From an uncultured Candidatus Saccharibacteria bacterium (GTDB taxonomy: Bacteria; Patescibacteriota; Minisyncoccia; Phycocordibacterales; DATGWK01): 64,000 nt of DNA. Position 1 is the first letter of the stretch. Each line of letters opens with the position of its first letter. The DNA is taken from contig CAYRZH010000003.1 in the NCBI GenBank assembly GCA_964428845.1, forward strand, positions 25,884-89,883. The letters run 5' to 3'. Below, piece after piece: positions 2,482 to 54,690 of this stretch. The notes below the pieces were generated by a model. That model was not told the DNA's origin. It saw only the letters and a list, made by a program, of their open reading frames with translations, and did no database searches. A program made the translations under genes and the position numbers.

Positions 2482-3057
2482 ATGAAAAAAGTTGTTTTTG
2501 ATATTGAAACAAGCAATATTTTCTCTGATGTTGGCAAGAACGACCCAGCTCTTTTAGATATATCTGTAGTTGGAATTTATGAATATGATAAAGATAAATA
2601 CACCTGCTTTGTAGAGGAAGAGTTCAAAAAACTTTGGCCGATTTTAGAAAAAACAGACCTTCTTATCGGTTTCAACTCCGAACATTTCGACCTTCCACTT
2701 CTCAACAAATATTATTCTGGCGATCTTTCAAAGATTGATCACCTGGATATACTCAAAGAAATCAAAAACTCCTTTGGTCGGAGGATGAAACTTGACCAGA
2801 TCGCCGAGGGGACACTTGGCTTGAAAAAAATTGGTCATGGACTGCAGGCTACAAACTGGTGGAGGAAGGGAGAGTACGAAAAAGTAAAAAATTATTGTCT
2901 AGACGACGTAAAGATCACCAAAGAAATATATGAATTTGCTCTAGCCAACAAAAAAGTGAGGTTTGCCGAGGGGGGAAGTATTATCGATGTACCACTAAAT
3001 ACAGATAGCTGGAGCAAAGATCGCGGCAATAGCATCACATTTACCTTGCCTTTTTAA
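2482..3057 (+). CDS. DEDD-family 3'-5' exonuclease (RNase H-like fold, DnaQ/RNase T-like). The likely start is the internal MKKVVFDIETS; the ORF track starts at 2449, overlapping hisS.
   Basis: N-terminal FDIETS Exo I motif and a later FNSEHFDLPLL motif, typical of DEDDh exonucleases. Confidence 0.6.
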   Translation: MKKVVFDIETSNIFSDVGKNDPALLDISVVGIYEYDKDKYTCFVEEEFKKLWPILEKTDLLIGFNSEHFDLPLLNKYYSGDLSKIDHLDILKEIKNSFGRRMKLDQIAEGTLGLKKIGHGLQATNWWRKGEYEKVKNYCLDDVKITKEIYEFALANKKVRFAEGGSIIDVPLNTDSWSKDRGNSITFTLPF

Positions 3058-3895: not shown

Positions 3896-6800
3896 TCTCC
3901 CTTAGACGACAAAATTCACAAGAGGAGTCATCACATTTTTTATTCCAAAACTTTAGGTCAAAAATTTCTGCAGCGATAGAAGAAATTTCCTTTCTCAAGG
4001 CATCTGCATCCTCTACCGTAATTTCAAACAATTCCTTTCTATATTTACCAGATTTGTCGGGCTCAACAAAGTCCACAACTCCCTTCCCTACCTTAAGTTG
4101 GCCACTGTCAAATTCGTCCAAAAGAATTTTGTAGAAAACGAGCTGTCTTTTGTAATTACCATCAGAGCTCTTGGTACCACCCTCTATCTCCCTTCTGCTT
4201 TTTGGATTTCCAGTCTTGTAGTCCACAACTGTGACAGAGTCCCCCAAGTCCGGTTCGATCTTATCGATTTTTCCTTTTAGGAGCAGACTCTCTTTACTTC
4301 CCGCCTGACTCGTAAACGGCAAGAAGGTTCCTACTACGTTTAGCTCATTTACAATTGGCTTCGGCCAAGTATTTTTATATGCCTCGAAATATCCCGATAG
4401 AGATTTTGTTCCTTTCTCGAGAAATAACTTGAAATCGTCTTCAGAAAGAGCTTTTTTGTTAAGAAAATTTTCAAAAAGTGAGAGGAAATTTTTCTTGGAC
4501 ATTAGCCTGCCGTTCCGATATTCATCAAAGAAAACCTTGAGAGTTTCATGAATGGCCGTGCCGTAAAGCTGATATCTTTCTTCGGCCTTCGGTACCCTGA
4601 TAAGATTCAAAAAGAAAAATTTCCAAGGGCAATCTATATAATTATTGAGAGCGCTTACCGATATGCCTTCTTCAAGAAAAACCTTTCTCAAATAATTCTT
4701 GTCCCTGATCGATGGAGTAACCTTAGGGCGACGATCAGAGGTTACCCGCCCCGCTTTTCCAATAGGAACTTTGATATCTATTTTTTTAATCTTACTTGGA
4801 TCAATTTCTTCCAAGAATTGACTAGGTAAAAGTTCCTTTTGAGAATTATCCTTTTTTGAATATGAAAGAGTCACCTCCTTACGGGCTCGGGTTAAGGCAA
4901 CATAGAGCAGGCGTCTCTCGTCTTCCACTCCACCGTCATCTACTTCACTTAGACTGCTTAGAGGCAGGAAATAACTGGGCATCCTCCTATTCCCCCAATG
5001 CCCATCGTTCATACCAACACAAAAAACATAATCAAACTCCAAACCCTTGGATTTATGCGCCGTCATAAGATTTACTTTTCCCGGTGCAACAGAAAAACCT
5101 TGAGTGCGGATTGAGACATCGTGCCTCGATAGAGTATTCAAAAAAATAATGTAGTCCTTGAGAGTGTAATATTTATGACGCTCAAGAAGACCTACCGCCT
5201 GACTTAGCAAGGTATTTAGAAGTGAAAGTTTCTCGGTTCCGCTTTCTCCAAGCATCAAGTAAGAGATGAAACCCATATTGTGCATAACAGCTTCAAGCGT
5301 CTCCGAAAGATTTTTCTTCTTCGCCGCGAGGCTTAGCTTGTGCAACTTCGAATAAAGATCACTGAATTTATTTACATCTTTTATACCAGCCGCCTTAAGG
5401 TCAGATGGCTTTCTTAAAGAATCGTAGATGGATATTTTGTTTTTTCTCGAAGCCCTGACCAGTTTGAAAACATCCAGATGATCCAGGCCTAAAAAATCGA
5501 AGAAAAGCACTGGAACAATAAGTTCGTCATTTCCAAAATCATTTATAGCATAAAGCACGGCGATAAAGGCTCTTATGTCTTCGTCAGCAAAAAGATCTGT
5601 CTCGGAATGTATTACGTAAGGTACCCCAGCTGACTCGAATACTTGTCTAAGAGGCAGAGCATCTTTATTGTCTCTGTATAAAACTGCAATGGAAGGCGCA
5701 TCTACCCCACCAGCGATCTTCATCTTGATTTTGGAGACAACCCACTCGTACTCAAGCCTTTGACTTGGAAGTTCTGCAAGGAAAATCGATGGCCCTGCGG
5801 TGGATCGTGATGAGACCAGCCGTGGTCGCATATCGTCTAGGGCCAGAATATTTTTTGAAATCAGACTATGGGAAGCATCGAGAATGGCTTGTGGTGATCG
5901 GTAATTTTTCTTTAGAGTAATAAGTTTTGCCTCCTTGAATCTCTTTTTAAAATAAAGAAAGTTTTCGAGTGAAGCGCCTTGGAAACGGAAAATAGCCTGC
6001 TTCTCGTCCCCGACGATGAATAGATTGGGGTTCTTGTGGAAGCCAGAAAGCAGTTCTAGAAGCTTATTTTGGGCGTTATTTGCGTCCTGGTGCTCGTCGG
6101 CCAGGATGTATTGGTAATTTTCTTGGAGTTCAAGGAGAAGGTTCTTATTTGCTCTCAATTCTTTCAGAACTTCTATAATCATATCCTCATAGTCATAGAG
6201 TCTCTTTTTATCAAGCGACTCCTGATATTTTTCGTAAACTAAAAAAAGTTCCTCGCTATTTTGGATTCTTCTTTCTGTTGGCTTCCACTTTGCTTTCATC
6301 TCACCCTTATAGGCTCCACTTTGATGATACAGGTCTTCGTTTGACTCGAAACGCTTCCTCTCGTCTGCCAGTATTTTTTTAAAATTTTTTGGGTCGATAT
6401 CGTCTCGCTTCAGTTCCTTTATTTGAGAAATTATTGATTTTAAATAGAAAAAAGGATTACCATAAGGTTTAAGATTTTTGAGTTTGGTCTTGGAAATTAT
6501 TTCTTCGAGAATTTTTATCTGATCAAGGTCACTCATGTTTTGAGCGCCAATGATTCGAGGAAATTCTTGAGGATAGCGTTTTATTATCTCATTACAGAAG
6601 CTATGGAATGTGTGAATGTTGGCTCTATAGCCTGTTGGGCCAACGATCTCCACGAGCTTTTTTCTTATGGAGTGAACCCCCGATTCGGTAAAAGTGAGCG
6701 CAAGAATACTTGAGACCGATGCATCTGTTTTTCGTAAGATATTTGCGATCCGCAGAGTAAGAATGGAGGTCTTCCCCGTACCTGGGCCAGCGATGACCAT

Positions 6801-6920: not shown

Positions 6921-8138
6921 TTAATAATTCCTCAAACGATTGATGTTTTCGTGCTGCCTGATTTTTTCATGGGCCTTGGCCTCGATCTGGCGGATACGTT
7001 CGCGGGTGACACCAAACTCTTTGCCGACTTCTTCGAGGGTGTGGGTGATACCATCCACAAGACCGTGCCTCATTTCGAGTATCTTTCTCTCTTTGGGCGG
7101 TAGATCTCCCAAAATTTCTCTGACTTGGTCAGAAATAATCCTTCGGGAAGACTCTTGGTCTGGCGAAAGAATCTTTTCATCGGCAATAAAATCACCGAGG
7201 GTAGACTTGCCATCATCTCCATCGTCTCCAACAGGGCTTTCGAGTGAGACTGTATTTTGGTCTATTTTCTCGATTTGATAGACCTTATCAACGTCCATGT
7301 TCATTTCTACAGCGACTTCTTCTGGTAGTGGATCACGACCAAGGTCTTGAGAAAGACGGCGCACCACCTGCTTGTATTTGGCAATAGTTTCAACCATATG
7401 GACCGGCACGCGGATAGTACGACTCTGATCTGCGAGAGCTCTGGTTATAGCCTGACGAATCCACCATGTGGCGTATGTAGAAAACTTGTACCCCTTAGTC
7501 CAATCAAATTTATCAACAGCTTTAAAAAGACCCAGATTCCCCTCTTGAATCAGGTCAAGGAGTGTAAGGTCAGGGCTTCGACCGACATATTTCTTGGCAA
7601 TGGAAACCACGAGTCGGAGATTGGCTCTGGCTAGGAGATTCTTCGCTTCTATATCACCTGCTTCAATCCTTTTTGCAAGCTCTTTTTCTTGGGTACCAGA
7701 AATGAGGGGGTATTGGCCAATTTCCTTAAGGTACATCTGTATGGAGTCATAAGACGAACTATCAGAGCCGTAGGCAAGTTTTTTTACTAGAGTTTCTTCT
7801 GTGCCAGCATCAAGCAGACCTCCCCCTTCAAGAATGTCTATACCTGCCTCGTGAACTCTGGCATACAAATCATCCAAAAAGACGATATCTTCTTCGATGG
7901 TTGGAAATTCTTTAAGGATTTCGTCATACGTAATAAATCCTCGTTTTTTACCCTTACCGAGCAAGATAACCATACTTGCTTCGAGTTTTTGAGCCTTTTT
8001 GGTAAGTTTACCCTTTTCAGGAATTTGTTCCTTGCCAGAAGTGATTTTTTTTACTACTCGAGTTTTCTTCGAGATTTTCTTTGCCTTTTTTACCTTAACA
8101 TTCTTTTTCCCTTTGGCCTTTTTTTTGTTTTTCTTCAT
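6921..8138 (-). CDS. rpoD: RNA polymerase sigma-70 factor RpoD with a lysine-rich N-terminal extension
   Basis: Region 2.4 ([18 protein letters not shown]) and region 4.2 ([22 protein letters not shown]) are present. Located immediately downstream of dnaG. Confidence 0.9.
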
Positions 8139-9885: not shown

Positions 9886-12800
9886 TTAACTTAAATTTCG
9901 CTTTCTCAAATCTTCAATCATCTTTGCCTTCGAACTTCCCTTAAAACCGGTACCGGCCGGAATCAAATTTCCAATAATGACGTTTTCTTTGAGACCAATT
10001 AGATGGTCCTCGTGACATTTCAAAGCTCCGCTGATAAGAACTCTCGTCGTGTGCTGGAAAGAAGCAGCAGATAGGAAGCTTCGCCTCGAAAGGGAAATCT
10101 CTGTGATGCCCATGATCACGGCTTCCCCCTTGGACTCATCGAGGTTTCTCTCCTTAGCAATTTTATTTGCCTCAAGAAACTCCGTGAGTTCGACCAGATC
10201 TCCGACAGAGAATTCTGTGCCACCCTCGTCTTTTATCCTGCGCCTACTGAACATTTGTCTAACGATAACTTCGATATGCTTCCTTGAAACAGGCGAGCCT
10301 TGCAGTTCGTAGAGTTTACTGATTTCGTGAATGACATATTGCTCGGTTTTCTCGCGGCCAGCATAGCGGAAAAGTTCATCCAAATCTGCAGATCCATCGG
10401 TAATCAAATCTCCTTTTTTGACCTGCTCCCCAACCTTAACAGAAATCATTCTGTTGTAGTTCACAGAATAATCTGAACTAGCTTTCGTCTTTGCTTTTGA
10501 TTTATCTGATACATCCGGCAAGATACTGATGAGTTTCTCACCGGCAGAGTTTTTGATTTCTGTTACAACACCATCCACATGGCTAATGACAGCGGGGTTT
10601 TTTGGCTTTCTTTTTTCAAAAACTTCTTCGACACGAGGTAGACCACGAGTAATATCACCACCGACAGAGGCAGTACCACCGGCATGGAAGGTTCTCATGG
10701 TTAGCTGGGTTCCTGGCTCACCGATAGCTTGAGCAGCAACTGTGCCGACTGCTTCTCCGAGCTCAATGACTTTATTTTTTCCTAAGTCGTAACCGTAGCA
10801 TTTTACACAGATTCCACGCAGACTCTTGCAAGAGAGTGGTGAACGGACCAGAACTTCGCTTATTCCTGCCTGCTCGATAGCGCGGGCCATTTCCTTTGTA
10901 ATACACTCTCCCTTTTTTGCTATCACTTCACCCTTACTGTCAATGCTGTCTTCGGCAAGAAATCTACCTTTAATGTTTTGAGACAGAGGAACTTCAATAC
11001 CAGAAGCACTTTCCTTTCTCAATACGATTCCTTCCTTGCTTCCACAATCTTCTTCTCCAACCACAACGTCTTGAGCCACATCGAAGAGACGCCTAGTGAG
11101 GTACCCAGCCTTGGCAGTATTGAGAGCGGTATCAGTGAGACCTTTACGCGAACCGTGAGTGGTAATGAAATACTCTAGAGGGCTCAATCCTTCTTTACTA
11201 CAAGACAGAATCGGAAACTCGATCGTTTCACCGGCTGTGTTCTGGATAAGACCTTTCATGCCGACCATCTGGGTGATCTGGCTAAATGAACCTCGGGCTC
11301 CGGAGTAGACCATGTCATAGACAGAGTCTTTTTTGCCCAAGGTCGTTGGCATTAGTTTCTCGACTTCTCCCTTGGCGCCGTGCCAGATTTCGATATTCTT
11401 TCTGATGCGCTCCTCTTCAGAGATAAGACCGTCTTTGTACTGTGTGAGGATCCCTTCGGCTTTTTGTTTTGCCTTTGCAATGACCGCATTCTTTTCTGTT
11501 GGAATTTTAACATCATCTATACCCCACGTTGTTCCAGAATACGTAGCGTATCGGAATCCGAAATCTTTTATTTTATCCATGACCGCCGGGATGTTTTCTA
11601 TCCCATATTTTTCGATGAGACTGTCGATGAGTTGCCCCATTTTCTTTCTATCGACTTCCGCATTTATAAATGGGTAGTCCAGCGGCAAGACGCTATTGAA
11701 GAGAATTCTACCCACAGTGGTTTCGAAAATCCCTCCATTAAATTCCTTGTATTTTGTTGTATCGTCGGCGAGAACCTTTATTTTTGCGCGGAAATCCAAT
11801 TCACCAAAATTATGCGCTGTAATAGCGCTATTTGGTTCTTCGAAATATTTGCCTTCTCCCTTTTCACCATCGATAGACTTGGTCATCCAGAAACAACCCA
11901 AGATGATATCGAGCTTATCGATAGACGCGACGAGATTACCACTTCCCGGCTTCAGGATGTTTTTGTCAGAGGCCATTATCTCACGAGCTTCTTCTTGTGC
12001 CTCTATAGACAACGGAACATGAACCGCCATCTGGTCACCGTCGAAGTCAGCGTTAAATGCAGTACAAACTAGAGGATGGACCCGGACAGCATCTCCTTCA
12101 ACAAGAATCGGTTTGAAGGCCTGGATACCTAGTCGATGCAAAGTTGGAGCACGATTTAGAAGGACAAATCTATTCTTGATGATTTCTTCGAGAATCGCCC
12201 AAACTTCTGGAATCCCATCTTCGATGAGCCTACTTGCTCCACGGATGTTATAAGCTAATTCTTTTTTTAGAAGGCCTGAGATTACAAAAGGTTTGAAGAG
12301 TTCCAGGGCCATATGTTTTGGCAAACCACACTGGTTGAGCTTAAGTTCTGGACCAACGACGATTACGGATCGTCCCGAGTAGTCAACACGCTTACCCAAG
12401 AGATTGGCCCTAAAGAGACCTCGTTTGCCCTTCAAATTGTCAGAAAGCGACTTGAGTGGTCGACGTTGAGATTGGTTGAGAGCAGAACCAGGAGAGTTTC
12501 CATGTCTGATGGTGTTATCTATAAGGGAATCCACTGCTTCCTGAAGGATTCTTTTTTCGTTTCGCAAGATCACTTCCGGAGCATTTATTTCTTTGAGTTT
12601 CTTTAGTCTATTGTTTCTGTTTATGACACGACGATATAGATCGTTGACGTCCGAGGTGGCATATCTACCTCCATCGAGCGGAACCATAGGACGAAGTGCT
12701 GGTGGGATGACAGGTACACGACTGATGAACATCCACTCTGGGCGGATATTGTTTCTGATCATTGAACGCACAAGCGATAGACGTTTTTGAATTTTATCGA

Positions 12801-18623: not shown

Positions 18624-18734
18624 GGGTCTTGAATAGATGCCTCGTCGAGCACGGATAAATTTTTGCTAAAATTTTCCTCGAGCTCGCGCCGTCGCGCTCG
18701 CTAGTCTCGCCTCGGCATCTATTCAAGACCCCCT
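18624..18734. repeat. Hairpin element copy 1: a roughly 110-nt element with 21-nt terminal inverted arms (gggtcttgaatagatgcctcg ... cgaggcatctattcaagaccc) and a conserved GC-rich core
   Basis: Aligns end to end with copies at 26265-26373 and 54584-54690. The arms are reverse complements of each other. Confidence 0.8.
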
Positions 18735-18941: not shown

Positions 18942-19649
18942 CTAGGTGGCTTGAGGGACGGCAACTGGTGTATGAGAACCGACTTGCGACACAGCGAACG
19001 CGAACCCGCGGTCACGAAGCCTCCCGCCGCCAGGCCTGCCGCTGCACGCGTTGAGCCAGCGACCACCGCCGACACGGTCCGCGCAGAGCAAGCGCGGATC
19101 GCCGACGGAGTCGTTGATGGGTTCGTGCATGGCAACGATGTACCACAGACCCATCGCTTCGATCTCCTTGTCCGTGAACTTCTCACGGATGAGGCAGGCC
19201 AGTTCGGCGTTCGGCTTCGAGAGCTTGCGTCTGTCGGCCTCGGCGCGGATCTTCTTCGTGGTCCGGTCGTTGTCCTCGAAGAGCATGCCCTTGAGAACGG
19301 CGACTTCGGTCGTCACGCCGCTCGTCGGCTTGAAGTCAGGGCTTCGGAGCACCTGCTTGGCGTAGTCACCCACACGGAGGCCTCTGCTTTTGAGTCGAGT
19401 GATCCAGGCTTTACCGGTCGTGCCGTCGCTCGTAACCCAGAAGTAGATGACGCCGCCTTCCTCGTGCCAACGCTTGGGGGGGTTGGAGAGCGGGAACGGA
19501 CCACGAATCGCGTCGGCAATTCTCACCTGCTCTACCACAGATGCGCCTCGAAATCTCTGCAGATCCGCTCGAGTGACACCCCTGACATCCAAGATCTCCA
19601 ATGTGGCCATGGCTTCCGAAATAGGTATTTCACTGACAAGGCTCCCCAT
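18942..19649 (-). CDS. High-GC island gene 1: hypothetical protein of an unrecognised family (paralog of 50662-51318 and 26555-27223)
   Basis: About 63% GC against an approximately 40% host. Strong SD (GGAAGGAGAcccaaATG). Shares a 331-bp identical block with 50803-51133. C-terminal motif AMHEPINDS...GGGRWL..C.GRP shared with the two other island genes. Confidence 0.7.
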   Translation of the reverse strand: MGSLVSEIPISEAMATLEILDVRGVTRADLQRFRGASVVEQVRIADAIRGPFPLSNPPKRWHEEGGVIYFWVTSDGTTGKAWITRLKSRGLRVGDYAKQVLRSPDFKPTSGVTTEVAVLKGMLFEDNDRTTKKIRAEADRRKLSKPNAELACLIREKFTDKEIEAMGLWYIVAMHEPINDSVGDPRLLCADRVGGGRWLNACSGRPGGGRLRDRGFAFAVSQVGSHTPVAVPQAT

Positions 19650-26264: not shown

Positions 26265-26373
26265 GGGTTTTGAATAGCATACCTCGTCGAGCACGGATAA
26301 ATTTCTGCTGAAATTTTCCTCGAGCTCGCGCCGTCGCGCTCGCTAGTCTCGCCTCGGCATCTATTCAAAACCC
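26265..26373. repeat. Hairpin element copy 2
   Basis: Full-length alignment to copy 1. The core ctcgtcgagcacggataaattt.tgct.aaattttcctcgagctcgcgccgtcgcgctcgctagtctcgcctcgg is identical except for 2 nt. Lies immediately upstream of the rpmF promoter. Confidence 0.8.
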
Positions 26374-26554: not shown

Positions 26555-27223
26555 CTACTTACGACGGACAAACACCAAGCGGTGGCCAGGACCCCAGACG
26601 CTGAGAGGGCGGCCGTCGCAAGTACGGAGCCACCGCCCACCACAGACGTCGCATCCGACAGAGAACACGTCGAGGTCGCTGTACGAGTCCCAAATGGGAT
26701 GCATCGCGATAGCGACACACTCGTCGTTGGGTTGGTCGATGTACTGCAAGCGCAGTTGCGGACCGGCTTCTGCTGGACAGAGACCAAGTCCGAGCTTGTC
26801 GGCCTCGGCACAGATGTTATAGAAGGCCGTACTGTGCTTGAAGCCGAGTTCAGCTACTGTAACAAGCACGAGGTCGAGTTCTATCGGCTCCTTGCTCACG
26901 ATAAACTCGGGCTTGTCGAGGATGTCGCCCGCCGCCAGGTCGTCGATTTTCATTTTCGCGGACTTGATGGCCCTTCGGAAACCCGCGCCATCCTTGATGC
27001 CGGTGCCGAGCTTGATGGTTTTCCATGTCGACCAGGCCCTAATAGGCTCGGCTCTTGCCCTGCCACCATTGCGGAGAAACTCCGTGAACCGAACCCCCGC
27101 ATTGTGCGGACTGTCGATCAGTGCCTGGACGCCACTTGGGCTAAGCACTTCCCAGTTGGTGTTTGCCCCCAACTTGGCAAGCAACTCGAATCTCTGCTCG
27201 ACGCAGATTGTCTTGGCAGCCAT
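26555..27223 (-). CDS. High-GC island gene 2: hypothetical protein, a divergent paralog of island genes 1 and 3
   Basis: High GC. SD AAAGGAGGtagccaATG. Shared blocks with the island-1/3 proteins: GTGIKDGAG vs DGTTGKAW, ICAEADKLGL vs IRAEADRRKL, AIAMHPIWDS vs IVAMHEPINDS, CGGRWLRTCDGRP vs GGGRWLNACSGRP. Confidence 0.6.
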   Translation of the reverse strand: MAAKTICVEQRFELLAKLGANTNWEVLSPSGVQALIDSPHNAGVRFTEFLRNGGRARAEPIRAWSTWKTIKLGTGIKDGAGFRRAIKSAKMKIDDLAAGDILDKPEFIVSKEPIELDLVLVTVAELGFKHSTAFYNICAEADKLGLGLCPAEAGPQLRLQYIDQPNDECVAIAMHPIWDSYSDLDVFSVGCDVCGGRWLRTCDGRPLSVWGPGHRLVFVRRK

Positions 27224-31315: not shown

Positions 31316-33061
31316 ATGGATAAACACAGTGATCTAGGGGTGATGCGTCACTCCCTCGCCCACCTCCTCGCCGCCGCCGTCTTGGAGCTCTGGCCAGAGG
31401 CAAAGCCGACAGTCGGTCCGGCGATTGATACTGGTTTTTACTATGATTTTGACCTACCGACCCCCCTCTCCGATAAAGATCTCCCGAAAATAGAGACGCA
31501 GATGCGCAAAATTCTTCCCTCTTGGACTGCCTTCACCCGCAAGGAAGTTACTGAAAAAGAGTCGCGAAAACTTTTCAAAAAAAACCCGTACAAGCTCGAG
31601 CTCATAGACGACATTATAAAAAGTGGCGAGAAAATTACTCTCTACACTTCGGGAGACTTCACTGACCTATGTCGCGGCGGACATGTAGAAAATCCGGCAA
31701 AAGATATCAATCCAGAGAGTTTTAAACTAGAGCGTGTCGCTGGTGCCTATTGGCGCGGTGATGAGAAAAATAAAATGCTAACGCGTATTTATGGCTTGGC
31801 CTTTGGTAGCAAAAAAGAACTCGATGATTTTATCGCCCAAAGAGAAGAAGCAAAAAAACGTGATCACAAAAAGCTCGGCAAAGAGCTAGGCCTCTTCGTT
31901 TTCTCGGAGCTGGTAGGGCCAGGCCTCCCTCTCTGGACTCCGAAAGGCACCATTATCCGCGAGCTTCTGAACGACTACGTTTGGCAGTTGCGCAAAGAAA
32001 AGGGGTACATGAAGGTGGCAATCCCCCACATCACAAAGAAGGGACTCTATGAAATCTCTGGACACTGGACAAAGTTTGCCAACGAACTCTTCAAGATCAC
32101 CACCCGCGAGAACCACCTCTTTGCCATGAAGCCGATGAATTGCCCGCACCACACCCAAATATTTGCAAGCTCACCCAAGAGTTACCGCGACATGCCGCAG
32201 AGATATTGCGAGACCACCATGGTTTACCGCGACGAACAGTCTGGAGAACTTTCGGGTCTCTCGCGTGTCCTCTCTATCACCCAAGATGACGCCCACGTAT
32301 TTTGCAGGAAAAATCAGATCGAAGAAGAAGTTTTTGCCGTTTGGGATATTATTGACAAGTTCTACGGAGCCTTTGGCTTCGAACTTTCGGTACGCTTTTC
32401 AAAACACGATGACAAACATTTTGAGAAATACATCGGCACTCCAGAGATTTGGAAGAGCTCCGAAGAGCAGCTCCAGAGTCTTATAGAGAAGCGCGGTGTG
32501 GAGTGGGTAGACGGTGCGGGTGAAGCAGCTCTTTACGGACCAAAGATAGACTTTATGACCAAGGATTCAATAGGTAGAACTCTGCAGATCGCCACGATCC
32601 AGCTCGACTTCAATACCCCAAAAAGCTTTGACTTGGTCTGTGTAAATGAAAAGGGTGAGCGTGAACAGGTGGTGATGATCCATGCCGCCATCATGGGTTC
32701 GATAGAGAGATTTATGGGAACTTTGATCGAGCACTATGCTGGCGCGTTTCCAGTTTGGCTTTCCCCTGTTCAGATAAAGATTCTACCAGTCAGTGAAAAC
32801 CAATTTACCCTTGGAAAGGAAATTTTAAATGAATTTAAAAAACATGATATTCGCGCAGAGCTTGATCTCGACAACGAAGGACTTGGTAAGAAAGTCCGCA
32901 ACGCGAAAGTAGAAAAAGTGCCATACTTCATCGTCGTCGGAGAAAAAGAGGCTCAATCAAAAAGATTCAATCTTGAAAAGCGTGAGGGTGAGAAAACCGA
33001 GGGTTTGGAAATAGAAAATGTTGTAGGAAAACTTCTCGAGGAGATTATCAGCAAAAAATAA
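31316..33061 (+). CDS. thrS: Threonyl-tRNA synthetase, short form lacking the N-terminal TGS/editing extension
   Basis: MRHSLAHLLAAAV N-terminus, class II motifs, and an anticodon-binding C-terminus. Confidence 0.85.
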   Translation: MDKHSDLGVMRHSLAHLLAAAVLELWPEAKPTVGPAIDTGFYYDFDLPTPLSDKDLPKIETQMRKILPSWTAFTRKEVTEKESRKLFKKNPYKLELIDDIIKSGEKITLYTSGDFTDLCRGGHVENPAKDINPESFKLERVAGAYWRGDEKNKMLTRIYGLAFGSKKELDDFIAQREEAKKRDHKKLGKELGLFVFSELVGPGLPLWTPKGTIIRELLNDYVWQLRKEKGYMKVAIPHITKKGLYEISGHWTKFANELFKITTRENHLFAMKPMNCPHHTQIFASSPKSYRDMPQRYCETTMVYRDEQSGELSGLSRVLSITQDDAHVFCRKNQIEEEVFAVWDIIDKFYGAFGFELSVRFSKHDDKHFEKYIGTPEIWKSSEEQLQSLIEKRGVEWVDGAGEAALYGPKIDFMTKDSIGRTLQIATIQLDFNTPKSFDLVCVNEKGEREQVVMIHAAIMGSIERFMGTLIEHYAGAFPVWLSPVQIKILPVSENQFTLGKEILNEFKKHDIRAELDLDNEGLGKKVRNAKVEKVPYFIVVGEKEAQSKRFNLEKREGEKTEGLEIENVVGKLLEEIISKK

Positions 33062-33067
33062 TAAAAA

Positions 33068-33130
33068 AAGAACCCGCCCTGCCGACAGAGCGGGTTCCGA
33101 ATCCGCAGAACACCCACGGATTCTTCTTCG
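33068..33130. terminator. Tandem GC hairpins after thrS. A-run on the 5' side and T-rich 3' side, so it can terminate in both directions.
   Basis: gaacccgccctgccgacagagcgggttc and gaatccgcagaacacccacggattc stems. The minus-strand reading ends in TTTTTTT. Confidence 0.55.
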
Positions 33131-33303
33131 CCAAATCAGAATTGTATTTTTTAGTGCTCCTTAAGTCAAGACCCTACCAATCAAGAAAAACCCGCCCCGG
33201 ACCCTCCGCGAAGGAGGACGGAAGCGGGTTCCCACGATAGGCGACGATCGCCCACGTGTGCAAAAAATATCGTATTACATCTTTCGACCCAGATCAATCT
33301 CAT

Positions 33304-33442
33304 AAAAAAATGGGGCCCGCTCGCGCGAAGCGCAAACGGGCCCCGGGGGCGGGGGCTCTGTAATCCCCCCTGGCTACAGCCACCACCGCCTACCCCCCAA
33401 CGGTCCATCGGCATATTAAACTGAACACATTTTTTTGTCAAA
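33304..33442 (-). ncRNA. Candidate small RNA unit: a consensus promoter (TTGACA-N17-TAATAT at 33408-33442), about 95 nt of GC-rich structured sequence, then a terminator (ggggcccg...cgggcccc + T7 at 33304-33350)
   Basis: Promoter and terminator both read on the minus strand. No RBS-plus-ORF that avoids the terminator. Family unknown. Confidence 0.35.
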
Positions 33443-33490
33443 TGCTAGAAACGACCCGAGCATGCAGCACATTATCAAAAATTTAGATCA

Positions 33491-33523
33491 AAAAGGCCTG
33501 CCCACGCCATCGTGGACAGGCCG
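33491..33523 (-). terminator. Likely gyrB terminator
   Basis: ggcctgcccacg...cgtggacaggcc stem with T5 on the minus strand, 108 nt past the gyrB stop. Confidence 0.6.
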
Positions 33524-33630
33524 ATCTAGCCGACGGGCTCGCGGCACTTGGTCTAACGGCCCACCAAGCACTCACGTACACCCGCGGCAGATCCCCCCCG
33601 ATATAAAAAATACATTGTCCGCGACAAATG

Positions 33631-35736
<2,106 letters not shown>

Positions 35737-35891
35737 CTATCTGTAGCGCGAATCCGCCTATTACAGGCGGATGGTACTATCAAAAAAGCCTTATAATATA
35801 TGGTTATTTATTCATCAATTGTATCAAAGCCTCACCTTAAAAACAAGCCTAAAATGGCCTAAAATATGGGGGGTTGTGGGTAACTTTCTTG

Positions 35892-35919
35892 CTTGACAAA
35901 AAAATATTTAGGTGTATAA
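35892..35919 (+). promoter_or_regulatory. Consensus sigma-70 promoter (TTGACA-N16-TATAAT)
   Basis: cttgacaaaaaaatatttaggtgtataatg. Confidence 0.6.
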
Positions 35920-35996
35920 TGATGTCTAGAGATGCTGGAGAAGAGGCCCAATGGGGGCAGCACCAGCATCTTTGGCTCCTTTTAGGGGAGATGTCC

Positions 35997-36173
35997 CATG
36001 AGGCTTCGCATCGAGGGTGGCATGGTCTACGGCCCGAACGATCACAAGACGTTCGAGGATCTCCGTGAGGACGGGTTCTCCGAGAACCCGCCCGTCAGGG
36101 TGATCCGGCCGCGGACGAAGGCGAAGCGGTCTTCCGGGAATTCCCGGGTGACCAACGGCAAGCGGCAGCGCTA
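35997..36173 (+). CDS. High-GC small ORF (58 aa, MRLRIEGGMVYGPNDHKTFEDLREDGFSENPPVRVIRPRTKAKRSSGNSRVTNGKRQR) with a strongly basic C-terminus
   Basis: SD AGGGGAG 7 nt upstream. A consensus promoter lies 80 nt upstream and a strong terminator 47 nt downstream. Missed by the ORF track's 60-aa cutoff. The region could alternatively be a noncoding RNA. Confidence 0.4.
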
Positions 36174-36220
36174 GCCGGCCCAGGGGGGGACATCTACTGA
36201 CCTTTTGTTTCGGTCGGGAA

Positions 36221-36254
36221 AGGCTCGCGCTTGTTTGCGAGCCTTTTGTTTTTG
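36221..36254 (+). terminator. Rho-independent terminator
   Basis: aggctcgc gcttgttt gcgagcct followed by tttgttttt. Confidence 0.7.
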
Positions 36255-36262
36255 TAAAAAAA

Positions 36263-38224
36263 CTATCTAGTTTGCCAACCTGATTCCGAATTGAAACTTT
36301 TTGTAATCCTATCCATAATTTCATTTACTTCGACGTCTGTGAGTGTTCGTTCCTCCGATTGGAACACTAGTCGAAAGGCATAGGATATCTTTTCTACCCC
36401 ATCTGGGGATTTTTTTGTAAAAGTATCAAAGAGAAAATGGTTTACAAGAAGAGGACTTTTTGTCTTTAGAATCTTTTTTAACACCTTATCTCCTGAAACT
36501 TTGATCGGTACAAAAACAGCAATGTCTCGAACTACAAATGGGTATGGGGACGGTTTTTTGTATTGGGCAATATTTCTGAAAGATTCTTCTGGGTCAGGGC
36601 CAACGGGGTCCGGAAGATGAGCAATCAGTTTCGTTAGGTCAACCTCGGCGACTCCATTGCCCGAAAACCCGATTATATCTGTTGGCAAGGTTTCTTCAGA
36701 AAGCTCCCTAAAGACTTTCTTCAAGATTTCGTCCGGAGATGTTAGCAGGTCCGCCCTTTTATTGGGCTGTCTACCCCTGACACCAATGCCGAGCGACAGG
36801 TGCTCCCCCGCCTGGCTAAAAATATTTCCTATCTCAAAAACTTTTACTTGGGAAATACCTAGAAGATCAACCAGACTGATGTTGTGGCTTAAGACCTTCT
36901 CGATAGCTGGAGCAAGTGAGTTGCGCAGAAATCCTTTATCCGAAGCAATAGGGTTAGCCACTTCCACTTCCCCATTCTTCTGGAAGGCATATGTGTATAC
37001 TTCACAAAAACCCTGGCCGACTAGAATTTTTCTTATCTTTTCCTGGTAGTAGAAAATCTTATTTACTGCCGCCCTCTGACCTTCGCCGAGAGAGGCACTT
37101 CCGATATTTTCATAACCAAAAAAACGTCCGAATTCCTCGACAAGATCTTCCTTAATTCTCAAATCCAACCTTTCCGATGGAATCTCAACTACAAATTTCT
37201 TATCTTCCTTAATAACACTAGAAACGTAATCCCATCGGAATCCGGCCTTGGTAAAAATATCTGAAACCTTTCTTAGATTTGTTTTTATACCTAGACAATT
37301 TTCTATATCTTCAAGTGAGATACTTATACTATGCCTTTCTTCTTTTTTAGGATATATATCCAAAATATCAATCGAGATTTTACCACCAGCAGTTTTTTCG
37401 ATAAAACTTGAGAGAAGTTCTACGGCTTCAGGAACAATCTCGGCTGTTATGCCGTTTTCGAAACGGATAGAGGCGTCGGTTCGGAGACCGAGGGTTTTGG
37501 ATGTTTTGCGTATTGAGATGGGATCGAAATTGCAAGCAGAGATAAGAACATTCTTTGTATTCTCATCAATCGCCGAGGATATCCCTCCTTTAATACCTGC
37601 AATATCGAGAGCTTTGATCTCGTCGCTTATGACGAGTGCTTCGCTCGAAAGAGTATATGTTTTGCCGTCGAGACATCCTAGAGTTTCCCCATCCTTAGCA
37701 TTTCTTATCTTTAATTTTTTCTTCTGCTCGCCGGAGATTTTATCAAGATCAAATGTATGTACCGGCTGGCCAGTTTCAAGCATCACAAAGTTGGCAGAGT
37801 CGACGATGTTGTTTATCGACTTTTGACCGACGGCATTTAGATATTTCTTGAGCCAGTCTGGTGACTCCCCCACTTTTACACCGACCACAACCCTTTTGGC
37901 GGCACGATAACACTTCGCGCCGCTCTCGATCTCAAGAGAAATAAAGTCAGCTGTTTTTATAGCTGGATCTGTCTTCGAACGTTCGGGTTCATAAGAAAGT
38001 TTTCTTGACAGTAGAGCTGAAATTTCACGAGCAATGCCTTTTTCGGAAAGACAATCATGACTCCGGTTTGGTAAAACTTTTACATCAAGCACACTGTCGT
38101 CCGAGATCGACTCGATAGATTCGACCTCGAAAGCGTGCATAGTCAGTAGTTCTGATATTTTCTTGGGAGCAGGCAGGCTTTTACTAAAAAATCTATCGTT
38201 TAGCCAGTTGTAGGAAATTTTCAT
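36263..38224 (-). CDS. pheT: Phenylalanyl-tRNA synthetase beta subunit (short, 653 aa)
   Basis: B3/4 and B5 domain blocks and a C-terminal FDBD-like region. Directly downstream of pheS. Confidence 0.8.
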   Translation of the reverse strand: MKISYNWLNDRFFSKSLPAPKKISELLTMHAFEVESIESISDDSVLDVKVLPNRSHDCLSEKGIAREISALLSRKLSYEPERSKTDPAIKTADFISLEIESGAKCYRAAKRVVVGVKVGESPDWLKKYLNAVGQKSINNIVDSANFVMLETGQPVHTFDLDKISGEQKKKLKIRNAKDGETLGCLDGKTYTLSSEALVISDEIKALDIAGIKGGISSAIDENTKNVLISACNFDPISIRKTSKTLGLRTDASIRFENGITAEIVPEAVELLSSFIEKTAGGKISIDILDIYPKKEERHSISISLEDIENCLGIKTNLRKVSDIFTKAGFRWDYVSSVIKEDKKFVVEIPSERLDLRIKEDLVEEFGRFFGYENIGSASLGEGQRAAVNKIFYYQEKIRKILVGQGFCEVYTYAFQKNGEVEVANPIASDKGFLRNSLAPAIEKVLSHNISLVDLLGISQVKVFEIGNIFSQAGEHLSLGIGVRGRQPNKRADLLTSPDEILKKVFRELSEETLPTDIIGFSGNGVAEVDLTKLIAHLPDPVGPDPEESFRNIAQYKKPSPYPFVVRDIAVFVPIKVSGDKVLKKILKTKSPLLVNHFLFDTFTKKSPDGVEKISYAFRLVFQSEERTLTDVEVNEIMDRITKSFNSESGWQTR

Positions 38225-41493: not shown

Positions 41494-41569
41494 TGGAGCC
41501 ACCTCCCGGGCTTGAACCGGGGACCTATAGTTTACAAAACTATTGCTCTACCAACTGAGCTAAGGTGGC
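41494..41569 (-). tRNA. tRNA-Thr (anticodon UGU)
   Basis: Reverse complement GCCACCT-TA-GCTCAGTTGGTAGAGC-A-ATAGT-TTTGTAA-ACTAT-AGGTC-CCCGGTTCAAGCCCGGG-AGGTGGC-T-CCA folds as a cloverleaf with 7-bp acceptor, D, anticodon and T arms. CCA is encoded. Confidence 0.85.
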
Positions 41570-50661: not shown

Positions 50662-51318
50662 TTAGGATTGAGAACCAACTTGCGGGACAACGAACGCGAA
50701 CCCCCCACCACCATCCCACCTGCGGTCAGGCCCGCCGCCGCGCGCGCGGAGCCAGTCACCACCGTCGCACCGGTCCACGGAGAGCAAGCCCGGAACACCA
50801 CAGGAGTCGTTGATGGGTTCGTGCATGGCAACGATGTACCACAGACCCATCGCTTCGATCTCCTTGTCCGTGAACTTCTCACGGATGAGGCAGGCCAGTT
50901 CGGCGTTCGGCTTCGAGAGCTTGCGTCTGTCGGCCTCGGCGCGGATCTTCTTCGTGGTCCGGTCGTTGTCCTCGAAGAGCATGCCCTTGAGAACGGCGAC
51001 TTCGGTCGTCACGCCGCTCGTCGGCTTGAAGTCAGGGCTTCGGAGCACCTGCTTGGCGTAGTCACCCACACGGAGGCCTCTGCTTTTGAGTCGAGTGATC
51101 CAGGCTTTACCGGTCGTGCCGTCGCTCGTAACCGAGAAGTAGATGACGCCGCCTTCTTCGCGCCACGAACGGGTCGGCTTTGAAACAACCCATTCACCCG
51201 AATTGACGAGTCTGATCGCTTCATTCGGGTCGGTCGAGCCGGTCTGACGCATGATGTTCTTCACCAGTGCGTTCAGCTTGCCGGGTAGCACGTCTGCGAT
51301 TGCGAATTTTGTGCTCAT
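50662..51318 (-). CDS. High-GC island gene 3: hypothetical protein, a close paralog of island gene 1
   Basis: The 331-bp block 50803-51133 is identical to 19108-19438 by manual comparison. SD AAGGAGatacaatcATG. The protein shares EEGGVIYF...GLWYIVAMHEPINDS with island gene 1. Confidence 0.7.
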   Translation of the reverse strand: MSTKFAIADVLPGKLNALVKNIMRQTGSTDPNEAIRLVNSGEWVVSKPTRSWREEGGVIYFSVTSDGTTGKAWITRLKSRGLRVGDYAKQVLRSPDFKPTSGVTTEVAVLKGMLFEDNDRTTKKIRAEADRRKLSKPNAELACLIREKFTDKEIEAMGLWYIVAMHEPINDSCGVPGLLSVDRCDGGDWLRARGGGPDRRWDGGGGFAFVVPQVGSQS

Positions 51319-52860: not shown

Positions 52861-53397
52861 TCAACTTGCGAGAACCGGAGTGGGGGCAGAGGCGGTCCAC
52901 TGTCCTTCCGTGCGACCTTCTAGATAAGCCTGATCGCAGAAAGGATCCCAATGCTCATCCCAGGAGAGACGGAGAACGAACTCCCCAATGCCATCCTGGA
53001 AGATGGTACCCCAGAAGCAGAGATCGGTCCTTTTCCCAAGACGATCTCTCTTCCATCTTGCGGGAATGAGTTTGGGGTTCTGCTTCAGAACAGAGAGGAC
53101 CGTGGCAGGCAAAGCCTTACCCCTGATCTGGAAACGGAACTTGGAACCAGGGACCGCCTTACCCGCCAACTGGTCGGGAGAGAGGAAGAGTTCGATCTTC
53201 TCACCGTTGGCAAAAAGATCGTCTCCCACACGGGTGAGCTTGAGCTCTCCCATGTCAGTGTGCTGCTTGATCGACCAGCCGTCTTCGAGCTGTGCCGGAT
53301 CGAGGTGACGTGGAACGTCGAACTCGGTCGGCAGTCCAACGTCGAGCCCCAGCTCATTGTTATTGCCAGCCATTTGAGTCTCCTTTCTGGTTTGCAA
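52861..53397 (-). CDS. High-GC hypothetical protein (178 aa), unrelated in sequence to island genes 1-3
   Basis: High GC against the local background. Minus-strand ORF with a strong terminator. No recognisable domain. Confidence 0.45.
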   Translation of the reverse strand: MQTRKETQMAGNNNELGLDVGLPTEFDVPRHLDPAQLEDGWSIKQHTDMGELKLTRVGDDLFANGEKIELFLSPDQLAGKAVPGSKFRFQIRGKALPATVLSVLKQNPKLIPARWKRDRLGKRTDLCFWGTIFQDGIGEFVLRLSWDEHWDPFCDQAYLEGRTEGQWTASAPTPVLAS

Positions 53398-54583: not shown

Positions 54584-54690
54584 GAGTTTAAATAAATACC
54601 TCGTCTCGCACGATAAAATTCTCGCTGAAATTTTCCTCGTGCTCGCGCCGTCGCGCTCGCAAGGCTTCACCTCGGTACTTATTTAAACTC
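54584..54690. repeat. Hairpin element copy 3
   Basis: Arms ggagtttaaataaatacctcg / cgaggtacttatttaaactcc pair perfectly. They differ from copies 1 and 2 at several positions on both arms simultaneously. Core ...aaattttcctcg.gctcgcgccgtcgcgctcgc is conserved. Lies 11 nt upstream of the tkt C-section ATG. Confidence 0.75.

What the first reader, a model, noticed from the sequence alone, without database searches (positions are those of the whole stretch)
35892..36254. Strong promoter and terminator framing a high-GC 58-aa ORF or small RNA between gyrB and pheT
- TTGACA-N16-TATAAT at 35892-35919 is followed by about 300 nt of high-GC sequence.
- That sequence ends in a perfect 8-bp stem plus T-run (36221-36254).
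- An SD-preceded ORF (35997-36173) encodes a 58-aa protein with an Arg/Lys-rich tail.
- The protein falls below the track's cutoff and matches no ribosomal or small protein I recognise.
- Composition and signal strength resemble the other GC islands, suggesting the same class of inserted module.
Basis: seen in the sequence. Interest (0 to 1): 0.55.

Follow-up and report, generated by a model that had tools for sequence, protein, structure and literature searches.

The report
Structured small-ORF transcript beside gyrB
A short, self-contained, tightly folded transcript in an uncultured Patescibacteria genome, most likely the mRNA of a 58-residue basic protein, belongs to a previously undescribed family kept at the same spot in six related genomes; its function is unknown.

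Summary
Window 35893-36258 (+) holds the only 12/12 sigma-70 promoter in the window, a ~71-nt leader, an SD-preceded 58-codon ORF (35998-36174) and a strong terminator.

No Rfam, Pfam, NCBIfam, PADLOC or PDB match exists, and there are no convincing protein homologues. Six related Patescibacteria carry one or two units of the same design at the same place, between pheT and gyrB on the opposite strand.

- **Conservation:** among the three close relatives, leader and 3'UTR are conserved while the ORF body is near-randomised.
- **For coding (window copy):** GGAG sits 6-9 nt before the start in all ten units, although host genes lack SD sequences. GC3 is 0.88 against 0.58 and 0.47 (p<=5e-5).
- **For structure:** MFE z is -6.7, and -5.7 for the ORF alone. 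The ribosome-binding region is locked by an anti-SD hairpin and a perfect 9-bp helix to the 3'UTR.

Best reading is a stable, translationally gated mRNA for a small, disordered, basic protein. A purely non-coding or dual-function RNA is not excluded.

"Inserted GC island" is only partly right. The unit shares promoter, SD and terminator style with other GC-rich orphan genes in the window, but it is unrelated to them and is syntenically conserved.

The parts
35893..35898 (+). -35 hexamer TTGACA (preceded by conserved TGC)
   Evidence: TGCTTGACA is shared with the homologous units in L081, L085, L087 and L089 (L089 read).
35915..35920 (+). -10 hexamer TATAAT, 16-nt spacer; inferred transcription start near 35927
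   Evidence: It is the only 12/12 promoter match in the window. The start site is inferred, not measured.
35927..35974 (+). 5'-terminal two-tier hairpin: P1 35927-35938 / 35963-35974 (perfect 9-bp core 35930-35938 / 35963-35971) and P2 GCCC 35946-35949 / GGGC 35955-35958
   Evidence: All ten family leaders form the same geometry and fold better than shuffles, z -1.3 to -4.4. Covariation on the leader alignment scores 0.343 against 0.232 in shuffles, reached by 3 of 500.
35976..35988 (+). Anti-SD hairpin: CUCCU 35976-35980 pairs with AGGGG 35984-35988, covering most of the SD
   Evidence: MFE and centroid structures. The MFE folds also draw anti-SD/SD hairpins in M84, M87, M89 and B85.
35985..35990 (+). 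Shine-Dalgarno GGGGAG, 7 nt before the ATG
   Evidence: GGAG lies 6-9 nt before the start in 10 of 10 units. Host genes lack SD: 5 of 46 in the window and 1 of 32 in relatives.
35989..35997 (+). 5' arm (AGAUGUCCC) of the long-range closing helix; covers the SD-to-AUG spacer
   Evidence: Perfect 9-bp inverted repeat with 36187-36195, present in the MFE and centroid folds. RNAalifold on the four A-type units keeps leader-to-3'UTR helices around the ORF.
35998..36174 (+). 58-codon ORF MRLRIEGGMVYGPNDHKTFEDLREDGFSENPPVRVIRPRTKAKRSSGNSRVTNGKRQR (net charge +7, pI 11.2). Two internal near-palindromic hairpins lie at 36069-36093 and 36128-36153.
   Evidence: GC1/2/3 is 0.58/0.47/0.88, with permutation p<=5e-5. 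MFE z for the ORF alone is -5.7. The AlphaFold model is mostly disordered (pLDDT 63, pTM 0.16, one helix at 19-25).
36187..36195 (+). 3' arm (GGGACAUCU) of the closing helix, within a G-run 13 nt after the stop codon
   Evidence: The homologous G-run (GGGGnGGGG) in A81, A85 and A88 pairs with a C-tract in their leaders.
36197..36217 (+). 3'UTR hairpin CUGACC-UUUUGUUUC-GGUCGG; the UUUGUUU loop is invariant in the four A-type units
   Evidence: invariant columns TTTGTTT.
36218..36258 (+). Intrinsic terminator (12-pair stem, T-rich tail). It ends 5 nt before the stop codon of the convergent pheT gene, so it could serve both genes (inferred, not tested).

Best explanation
The region is an autonomous, strongly promoted, intrinsically terminated monocistronic unit of about 330 nt. 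Its product is a compactly folded, probably long-lived mRNA for a 58-aa, highly basic, mostly disordered protein.

The RNA starts with a 5'-terminal hairpin, which is inferred to protect against 5'-end-dependent decay. Its ribosome-binding region is closed twice. An upstream CUCCU pairs with the SD, and the SD-to-AUG spacer pairs with a G-rich segment just after the stop codon. Translation would therefore need the fold to open, for example co-transcriptionally, after 3' trimming, with temperature, or through a helicase or other factor.

The unit belongs to a small, fast-evolving family fixed at the pheT-gyrB spacer of one Patescibacteria sub-clade. In the three close relatives the UTR architecture is maintained while the peptide sequence drifts.

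Shown: the signals, the predicted fold and its statistics, synteny, the conservation pattern, and the frame-specific codon periodicity. Inferred: that the unit is transcribed, that the ORF is translated, that translation is gated, and any cellular role of the peptide.
For: **Signals**
- Only 12/12 promoter in the window, plus a strong terminator.

**Family and synteny**
- Units of the same design lie at the same locus in L081/L082, L084, L085, L087, L088 and L089. Leaders are 65-78 nt long.
- A promoter-plus-leader pattern found nothing comparable in about 1 Mb of other loci.

**Translation**
- GGAG lies 6-9 nt before ATG/GTG in 10 of 10 units, in a clade whose ordinary genes lack SD.
- GC3 periodicity falls in exactly the SD/ATG-defined frame. 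Permutation p is <=5e-5 for W, B81 and B85, 2e-4 for M89, and 0.02-0.04 for M84 and M87.
- In-frame peptide similarity exceeds all other frames for W-A85 (36 vs <=24), A81-A85 (37 vs <=29) and B81-B85 (75 vs <=47).
- Conservative replacements arise through multi-base codon changes, and pN<pS.

**RNA fold**
- MFE z is -6.6 to -6.7 for the whole RNA and -5.7 for the ORF alone.
- Perfect 9-bp P1 and closing helices.
- Mean unpaired probability of the initiation region is 0.20. For 46 host genes the mean is 0.51 and the minimum 0.24.
- RNAalifold keeps leader-to-3'UTR helices in all four A-type units.
- Leader hairpin covariation.
Against: - **ORF length:** it is not significant in this GC-rich context (Fisher p 0.10).
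- **Peptide conservation:** across all 45 pairs the ORF frame is only marginally more conserved than the other five frames (23.1 vs 19.5-21.4).
- **Closest relatives:** A81, A85 and A88 show no codon periodicity. Their ORF bodies are near-random relative to each other (0.51-0.59 identity vs 0.44 shuffled), while leaders reach 0.73-0.78 against 0.29 shuffled.
- **No homologues:** none found among billions of predicted proteins. No gene with this product is on record in the collection, although the identical neighbouring pheT protein is listed there.
- **No fold:** the predicted protein has no stable fold.
- **No expression data:** none are available.
Confidence: 0.5

Rival explanations
1. A structured non-coding small RNA, or one whose RNA is the main effector. 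The conserved 5' and 3' parts and the GC-rich folded core are the functional entity, and the ORF is incidental or only translated in passing.
For: - Among A81, A85 and A88, UTRs are far better conserved than the ORF body.
- The ORF region alone folds much better than shuffles in all four A-type units (z -2.5 to -5.7).
- ORF openness is not significant.
- A81, A85 and A88 show no codon periodicity.
- No protein homologues exist.
- GC-rich intergenic islands in AT-richer genomes are a recognised signature of structured ncRNAs (PMC8723152, PMC6429828).
Against: - GGAG plus ATG/GTG at correct spacing occurs in 10 of 10 units, despite an SD-less host background.
- W, B81, B85 and M89 show strong frame-specific GC3 periodicity.
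- In-frame similarity exceeds off-frame similarity for several pairs.
- No Rfam family matches.
- No complementarity above shuffles to the neighbouring small units or between paired units.
Confidence: 0.22
2. A type-I-toxin-like stored mRNA. The inert, stable transcript would become translatable after processing, and its small basic peptide would be harmful, for example by binding nucleic acid.
For: The RNA design matches hok- and AapA1-type toxin mRNAs as known from the literature (my knowledge, not tested here). It has a 5'-3' closing helix, a sequestered SD and a very negative folding z-score. Fast peptide evolution with a conserved mRNA architecture also fits.
Against: - No hydrophobic segment: the highest 15-residue Kyte-Doolittle mean is -0.49 in W and at most 1.07 in the family.
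- No antisense promoter scoring 9/12 or better inside any unit.
- No complementary partner RNA nearby.
- No PADLOC hit.
Confidence: 0.08
3. A moron-like foreign cassette: a horizontally acquired gene carrying its own promoter, SD and terminator, of the same class as the window's other GC-rich orphan genes.
For: - Composition and GC3 are outliers: 0.88 against 0.39-0.52 for housekeeping genes.
- The window's GC-rich orphan genes share an own SD and elevated GC; two (26555-27223, 52861-53372) were checked for an 11/12 promoter and a terminator, and GC3 was measured for three.
- Host genes lack SD.
Against: - The unit occupies the same spacer in six genomes whose pheT is only 50-61% identical to the window's. 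Any acquisition would therefore be old, and the high GC would have to be actively maintained.
- There is no homology to the other islands.
- There are no phage, plasmid or viral-contig relatives.
- No flanking repeats were found.
Confidence: 0.1

Closest known systems
Type I toxin mRNAs (hok/Sok of plasmid R1; AapA1/IsoA1 of Helicobacter pylori) - recalled from the literature, not tested here
   Same: Short autonomous transcript, very stable compact fold, 5'-3' long-range pairing, SD sequestered so the primary transcript is translationally inert, small ORF, and a peptide sequence that evolves faster than the mRNA architecture.
   Different: The peptide is hydrophilic and basic with no membrane helix. 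No antisense or partner RNA was found.
Dual-function small RNAs with an embedded small ORF (S. aureus RNAIII/hld, SgrS/SgrT, SR1/SR1P) - recalled from the literature
   Same: A structured RNA of a few hundred nt with its own promoter and terminator that carries a short ORF. In RNAIII, the 3' part of the RNA delays translation of the ORF.
   Different: No sequence or Rfam relationship. No target-pairing region could be identified. Here the ORF occupies more than half of the RNA.
SD-led rpsU (bS21) in SD-blind Bacteroidia (PMC9976891, PMC13000453, PMC7797042)
   Same: A lineage whose ordinary genes lack SD, yet a small basic protein gene carries a strong SD. This implies special, conditional translation.
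   Different: No S21 homology. The peptides are far too variable for a ribosomal protein. Whether these ribosomes hide their anti-SD is unknown, because the 16S rRNA is not in the window.
Phage 'morons' (autonomous promoter-gene-terminator insertions with deviant composition) - recalled from the literature
   Same: Own sigma-70 promoter, own terminator and deviant GC, wedged between two unrelated genes.
   Different: Located between chromosomal housekeeping genes, not in a prophage. Syntenically conserved across a clade. No viral relatives.
GC-rich intergenic structured ncRNA candidates (GC-IGR/DIMPL searches; PMC8723152, PMC6429828, PMC5737381)
   Same: A long GC-rich intergenic region in a lower-GC genome with a strongly non-random fold.
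   Different: It matches no described motif. It also carries translation signals and codon periodicity.

Membership tests
Any Rfam RNA family | Covariance-model score at or above the family's gathering threshold | tested here: not met
   The whole window at gathering threshold gives only a tRNA at 41497-41569. Region 35700-36300 at E<=10 gives only sub-threshold noise, best 21.7 bits against a 41-bit threshold, on the wrong strand. The six related loci give only tRNAs.
Type I toxin-antitoxin (hok/Sok-like, AapA/IsoA-like) | Small hydrophobic, membrane-active peptide | tested here: not met
   GRAVY is -1.32 and the highest 15-residue hydropathy is -0.49 in W. The family maximum is 1.07.
Type I toxin-antitoxin (hok/Sok-like, AapA/IsoA-like) | Antisense or nearby complementary antitoxin RNA | tested here: not met
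   The best antisense promoter score inside any unit is 7-8 of 12. Duplex energies to neighbouring small units and between A/B pairs do not beat shuffles (z -1.3 to +1.4). Promoter-independent antisense transcription cannot be excluded.
Type I toxin-antitoxin (hok/Sok-like, AapA/IsoA-like) | Toxin mRNA folded so that 5'-3' pairing and an anti-SD block translation | tested here: met
   A 9-bp closing helix (35989-35997 / 36187-36195) and a CUCCU/AGGGG hairpin. Unpaired probability of the initiation region is 0.20, against a host mean of 0.51. These are predictions only.
Known protein families (Pfam, NCBIfam, PADLOC, PDB sequences) | Significant profile or sequence match | tested here: not met
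   W gave no hit in Pfam, NCBIfam or PADLOC and only E 0.083 in the PDB search; the nine other peptides gave only sub-threshold hits in the profile libraries (E 0.009-0.19) and were not run against the PDB.
Ribosomal protein bS21 (SD-autoregulated rpsU model) | Homology to Ribosomal_S21 | tested here: not met
   No Pfam hit at E<=10 for any of the ten peptides. Peptide lengths of 24-79 aa and near-random divergence are incompatible with a ribosomal protein.
Ribosomal protein bS21 (SD-autoregulated rpsU model) | Strong SD on a small basic protein gene in a lineage that otherwise lacks SD | tested here: met
   10 of 10 units carry GGAG. Host genes: 5 of 46 in the window, three of them GC-island genes, and 1 of 32 in relatives.
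Phage moron / horizontally inserted cassette | Own promoter and terminator with deviant base composition | tested here: met
Phage moron / horizontally inserted cassette | Residence in a prophage or mobile element, or patchy presence indicating recent insertion | tested here: not met
   The flanks are thrS, gyrB, pheT and pheS. The same locus is occupied in six related genomes. No phage, plasmid or viral relatives.
Dual-function sRNA | Structured RNA with an embedded translated small ORF | tested here: inconclusive
   Structure and coding signatures are both present in W. Translation is not demonstrated.
Dual-function sRNA | Base-pairing regulation of target mRNAs | not testable with these tools
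   The whole genome and expression data are not available.

The most novel reading that the evidence does not exclude
In a Patescibacteria lineage whose ordinary genes have no Shine-Dalgarno sequence, this unit and the few other SD-led, GC-rich, self-contained genes form a separate translation class. Their expression would depend on conditional access to the ribosome's anti-SD, comparable to rpsU in Bacteroidia. The W-type RNA would be a dual-function molecule whose conserved 5' and 3' structure, rather than its drifting peptide, carries the main function. Its conserved position back-to-back with the gyrB promoter might link it to gyrB control.
Probability: 0.12. Interest if true: 0.75.

Novelty: new variant of a known kind. 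Interest (0 to 1): 0.45.

Why it matters
- **Almost nothing is known here.** Little is known about small proteins, small RNAs or translational control in Patescibacteria, which cannot be grown alone.
- **A concrete object to test.** This is a conserved-position family of highly structured small-ORF transcripts with canonical SD sequences, in a clade that otherwise does not use them. The RNA architecture resembles stored toxin mRNAs, but the peptide is hydrophilic.
- **It touches two open questions.** How do SD-less bacteria use the few SD-led messages they keep? How much 'dark' small-gene content does annotation miss? No gene with this product is on record in the collection, although the identical neighbouring pheT protein is listed in it.
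- **Limits.** The family is small (seven genomes) and its function is unknown, so the immediate significance is moderate.

Tried and rejected
- **Known RNA:** Rfam at gathering and permissive thresholds, plus ARAGORN, found nothing at the locus.
- **Known protein:** Pfam, NCBIfam, PADLOC and PDB gave nothing. The single phmmer hit is a 2037-aa RHS/repeat protein (E 3.9e-4, summed over 5 repeats). I judged it a chance or compositional match, because I saw no counterpart of that segment in the relatives' peptides.
- **Repeat of the other GC islands:** rejected. There is no shared sequence.
- **Source contig or close strains:** the identical pheT protein is listed in the collection, but its contig is not retrievable. 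The nearest relatives are only 49-61% identical in pheT.
- **More family members:**
  - The GTDB genome scan gave only distant loci without the unit.
  - The one metagenome scan, with an A-type leader pattern, returned 5 chance hits in high-GC DNA.
  - A profile search with the peptides found only its own inputs.
  - Viral contigs gave none.
- **ORF length as evidence for coding:** rejected, not significant.
- **A motif shared by all ten peptides (P-x-[ND]-x-x-T-h-x-[DE]-h):** I saw one by eye, but the six-frame control shows most pairs are at noise level. I claim homology only for W-A85, A81-A85 and B81-B85.
- **Trans-pairing partner:** none found among the four small promoter-terminator units in the thrS-gyrB spacer, or between tandem A and B units.
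- **RNAalifold on the ten MAFFT-aligned leaders:** gave no consensus because of register errors. I used a stated structure and pair counts instead.
- **Vector contamination:** suggested by CCGGGAATTCCCGG in the ORF. There is no plasmid match, and the homologous flanks in relatives argue against it.
- **Structure prediction:** low confidence, so no fold search was attempted.

Full report

Yes. The window is 44.8% GC. Between the start of gyrB (33631-35727, - strand) and the end of pheT (36263-38224, - strand) lies a + strand unit with these parts.

- TTGACA at 35893-35898, a 16-nt spacer, and TATAAT at 35915-35920.
- GGGGAG at 35985-35990 and a 58-codon ORF at 35998-36174.
- A terminator stem at 36218-36247, with a perfect 10-bp core and a T-rich tail.

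The promoter is the only 12/12 match on either strand of the window, and the next best score 11. The ORF is 64% GC. Its length, however, is not evidence. Stop-free runs of similar size occur in all six frames, and 38% of dinucleotide shuffles stay open as long.

**2. Known families**

- Rfam gives nothing at the gathering threshold and only noise at E<=10.
- The peptide has no Pfam, NCBIfam or PADLOC hit, and its best PDB match is E 0.083.
- It has no word-sharing homologue among 5.8 billion proteins.
- It has one marginal phmmer hit among 1.84 billion representatives. That hit is a 2037-aa repeat protein whose score is summed over five repeats, and I regard it as spurious.
- There is no DNA or protein similarity in phage, plasmid or viral-contig collections.

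**3. Organism and relatives**

pheT places the window in Patescibacteria (Paceibacteria-like). The best match among GTDB species representatives is 41% identical. The identical pheT protein exists in the protein collection, on an NCBI contig of 96,776 nt. Neither it nor the 58-aa product can be looked up as a gene, and no gene with the 58-aa product is on record. The nearest other organisms have pheT 49-61% identical to the window's, mostly with an inserted NlpC/P60 domain.

**4. A syntenic family**

I fetched the contigs of those nearest relatives. Six independent genomes keep the order pheS-pheT-[spacer]-gyrB: L081/L082, L084, L085, L086/L087, L088 and L089. L086 breaks off inside the spacer, so L087 supplies that genome's sequence. 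Each carries one or two units of the same design in the spacer, on the strand opposite to pheT and gyrB. The shared design is as follows.

- A (TGC)TTGACA-N16/17-TAnnnT promoter.
- A 65-78-nt leader, starting (C)AGAA (or AGAU/UAGA) and folding into a two-tier 5' hairpin.
- GGAG 6-9 nt before an ATG or GTG.
- A GC-enriched ORF of 24-79 codons.
- A 3'UTR and a terminator.

A regular expression for promoter plus leader start found only these units in about 1 Mb of held sequence, plus one unrelated site in L037.

Three more distant relatives lack the unit: L090, L091 and L099, with pheT 50-52% identical to the window's. The family is therefore confined to a sub-clade.

By position next to gyrB, by leader and by 3'UTR, the window's unit (W) groups with the 'A-type' units A81, A85 and A88. 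The shared 3'UTR has a G-run followed by a hairpin with an invariant UUUGUUU loop. 'B-type' units lie between the A-type unit and pheT, or occur alone.

**5. What is conserved**

Among A81, A85 and A88 I measured identity per length against a shuffled baseline.

| Region | Observed identity | Shuffled baseline |
|---|---|---|
| Leader | 0.73-0.78 | 0.29 |
| 3'UTR | 0.48-0.66 | 0.22 |
| ORF body | 0.51-0.59 | 0.44 |
| First 450 nt of gyrB (aligned columns) | 0.81-0.86 | not computed |

The ends of the RNA are therefore under constraint, while the peptide-coding part drifts or is replaced.

**6. Coding or not?**

Evidence for coding:

- **(a) SD placement.** All ten units have GGAG at SD distance from a start codon, yet the clade's ordinary genes have none. 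In the window only 5 of 46 long ORFs have GGAG or GAGG before any candidate start in their first 40 codons, and three of those five are GC-rich orphan genes. The background is 5% per 11-nt window. In the relatives 1 of 32 called genes has even a weak match.
- **(b) Codon periodicity.** In the SD/ATG-defined frame W has GC1/2/3 of 0.58/0.47/0.88. A permutation test gives p<=5e-5. B81 and B85 also give p<=5e-5, M89 gives 2e-4, M87 gives 0.02 and M84 gives 0.04. Ribosomal and other housekeeping genes have GC3 of 0.39-0.52, so this is not expression-linked codon bias. The pattern fits protein constraint on codon positions 1 and 2, with pressure for G/C at free third positions.
- **(c) In-frame similarity.** It beats the five other frames for W-A85 (36 vs <=24), A81-A85 (37 vs <=29) and B81-B85 (75 vs <=47), and pN<pS.

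Evidence against coding:

- A81, A85, A88 and B88 show no periodicity.
- Over all 45 pairs the ORF frame is only marginally best (23.1 vs 19.5-21.4).
- ORF openness is not significant.
- The AlphaFold model is mostly disordered (pLDDT 63, pTM 0.16, one helix at residues 19-25).

I conclude that W is probably translated. The product would be a basic (net +7, pI 11.2), hydrophilic, largely disordered peptide.

**7. RNA structure**

- The W transcript folds far better than dinucleotide shuffles: MFE -173 kcal/mol with z -6.6, and z -6.7 in my own run.
- The ORF segment alone has z -5.7. The other A-type ORF segments give -2.5 to -4.1, whereas B-type ORF segments are near 0.
- All ten leaders fold better than shuffles (z -1.3 to -4.4) and into the same P1/P2 geometry.
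- I counted pairs for a stated P1/P2 structure on the uncurated MAFFT alignment. 64% of cells are paired, and 11 of 14 pairs show double changes. The covariation score is 0.343 against 0.232 in shuffles (reached by 3 of 500) and 0.08-0.25 in slid controls.

In W the initiation region is closed twice.

- CUCCU (35976-35980) pairs with AGGGG (35984-35988).
- AGAUGUCCC (35989-35997) forms a perfect 9-bp helix with GGGACAUCU (36187-36195), 13 nt after the stop codon.

The mean unpaired probability of positions -14 to +3 is 0.20. That is lower than for any of 46 host gene starts (mean 0.51, minimum 0.24). RNAalifold on the four A-type RNAs retains leader-to-3'UTR helices that enclose the ORF, plus the terminator. 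With only four very divergent sequences this counts as consistency, not proof.

**8. Mechanism**

The best-supported model is a strongly transcribed, decay-resistant, translationally gated mRNA for a small basic protein. The GC richness would be maintained by selection for RNA structure. That explains why the GC excess persists across genomes that diverged long ago.

In architecture the RNA works like type I toxin mRNAs or RNAIII-type dual-function RNAs. It fails the type I membership tests:

- there is no hydrophobic segment;
- there is no antisense promoter of 9/12 or better;
- there is no complementary partner.

A purely non-coding function of the conserved 5' and 3' structure remains a serious rival.

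**9. The 'GC island class'**

The window's other GC-rich islands are protein genes.

- 18942-19649 and 50662-51318 are 77% identical at the protein level.
- Both are about 30% identical to 26555-27223.
- 52861-53372 is a further GC-rich orphan gene.

Like W, all four carry a canonical SD. An 11/12 promoter and a terminator were seen for 26555-27223 and 52861-53372. GC3 was measured at 0.71-0.75 for the three paralogs. None has a Pfam match, and 50662-51318 has no viral relative.

W is nevertheless unrelated to them in sequence. It is also anciently resident at its locus rather than recently inserted.

**10. Verdict**

This is a real feature that is absent from the protein collection searched. 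It is the window's member of a small, previously undescribed family of structured small-ORF transcripts.

It is a new variant of a known kind: a structured, translationally gated small-gene mRNA or dual-function RNA. It is not categorically new. Interest is moderate, at 0.45. The most interesting open angle is the contrast between these SD-led units and an otherwise SD-less genome, for which the only precedent I found is rpsU in Bacteroidia (PMC9976891, PMC13000453).

Noticed in passing
window-wide (46 long ORFs); also L081, L084, L085, L087, L088, L089: Ordinary genes of this organism and its relatives essentially lack Shine-Dalgarno sequences: 5 of 46 in the window and 1 of 32 in relatives. 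The few SD-led genes are the GC-rich orphan genes and the small-ORF units.
   Followed up: partly
window 18942-19649 (-), 50662-51318 (-), 26555-27223 (-), 52861-53372 (-): GC-rich orphan protein genes. GC3 is 0.71-0.75 in the three measured, against 0.39-0.52 for host genes. All four have a canonical SD; an 11/12 promoter and terminator were seen for 26555-27223 and 52861-53372. The first two are 77% identical and both are about 30% identical to the third. No Pfam match; the one tested (50662-51318) has no viral-contig relative.
   Followed up: partly
window 18637-18731, 26279-26373, 54596-54690: A 95-nt repeat in three copies (72-96% identical), with inverted-repeat arms detected at the first two copies. 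Those two lie about 200 nt downstream of two of the paralogous orphan genes. It could be a miniature mobile element or a shared 3' element.
   Followed up: no
window 33060-33640 (- strand), thrS-gyrB spacer: Four tandem mini-units of about 70-115 nt. Each has a promoter-like site (three detected by the scan; the fourth, TTGATC-N17-TACGAT, read by eye) and a GC-rich terminator hairpin. I saw no SD-led ORF (by eye), and there is no Rfam match above noise. They are candidate small RNAs.
   Followed up: partly
window 35753-35771; also L081 ~11370-11392, L085 ~7020-7042, L084 ~6000-6022, L089 ~5928-5950: A hairpin (TCCGCC-loop-GGCGGA in the window, with variant stems in the relatives) lies just upstream of the gyrB start codon and recurs in the relatives. 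It is possibly a gyrB leader element.
   Followed up: no
window 36263-38224 (-) versus P0003-P0011: The window's pheT (653 aa) lacks the NlpC/P60 (C40 peptidase) domain. That domain is present in the ~760-830-aa pheT proteins of most of its closest relatives.
   Followed up: no
window 36134-36147: The perfect palindrome CCGGGAATTCCCGG (EcoRI site flanked by half SmaI sites) inside the ORF resembles a cloning polylinker. There is no plasmid match, and the homologous flanks in relatives argue against contamination.
   Followed up: yes
L084 8520-8780 (+): Downstream of gyrB in a relative there is a TTGACA promoter, a ~230-nt GC-rich segment and a terminator, with no called gene and no Rfam match. 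It is another candidate structured RNA.
   Followed up: no
L081 10400-10716 (-), L085 6165-6469 (-), L088 ~2720-3030 (-): Three relatives carry a second, 'B-type' unit in tandem with the A-type unit. Its 35-43-aa ORFs show clear coding signatures in B81 and B85 (GC3 0.73-0.81; B81-B85 in-frame score 75 against <=47 off-frame). A GGAGG-like element follows the stop codon in B85 and B88 (GAAGT in B81) and also in the single units M84, M87 and M89.
   Followed up: partly
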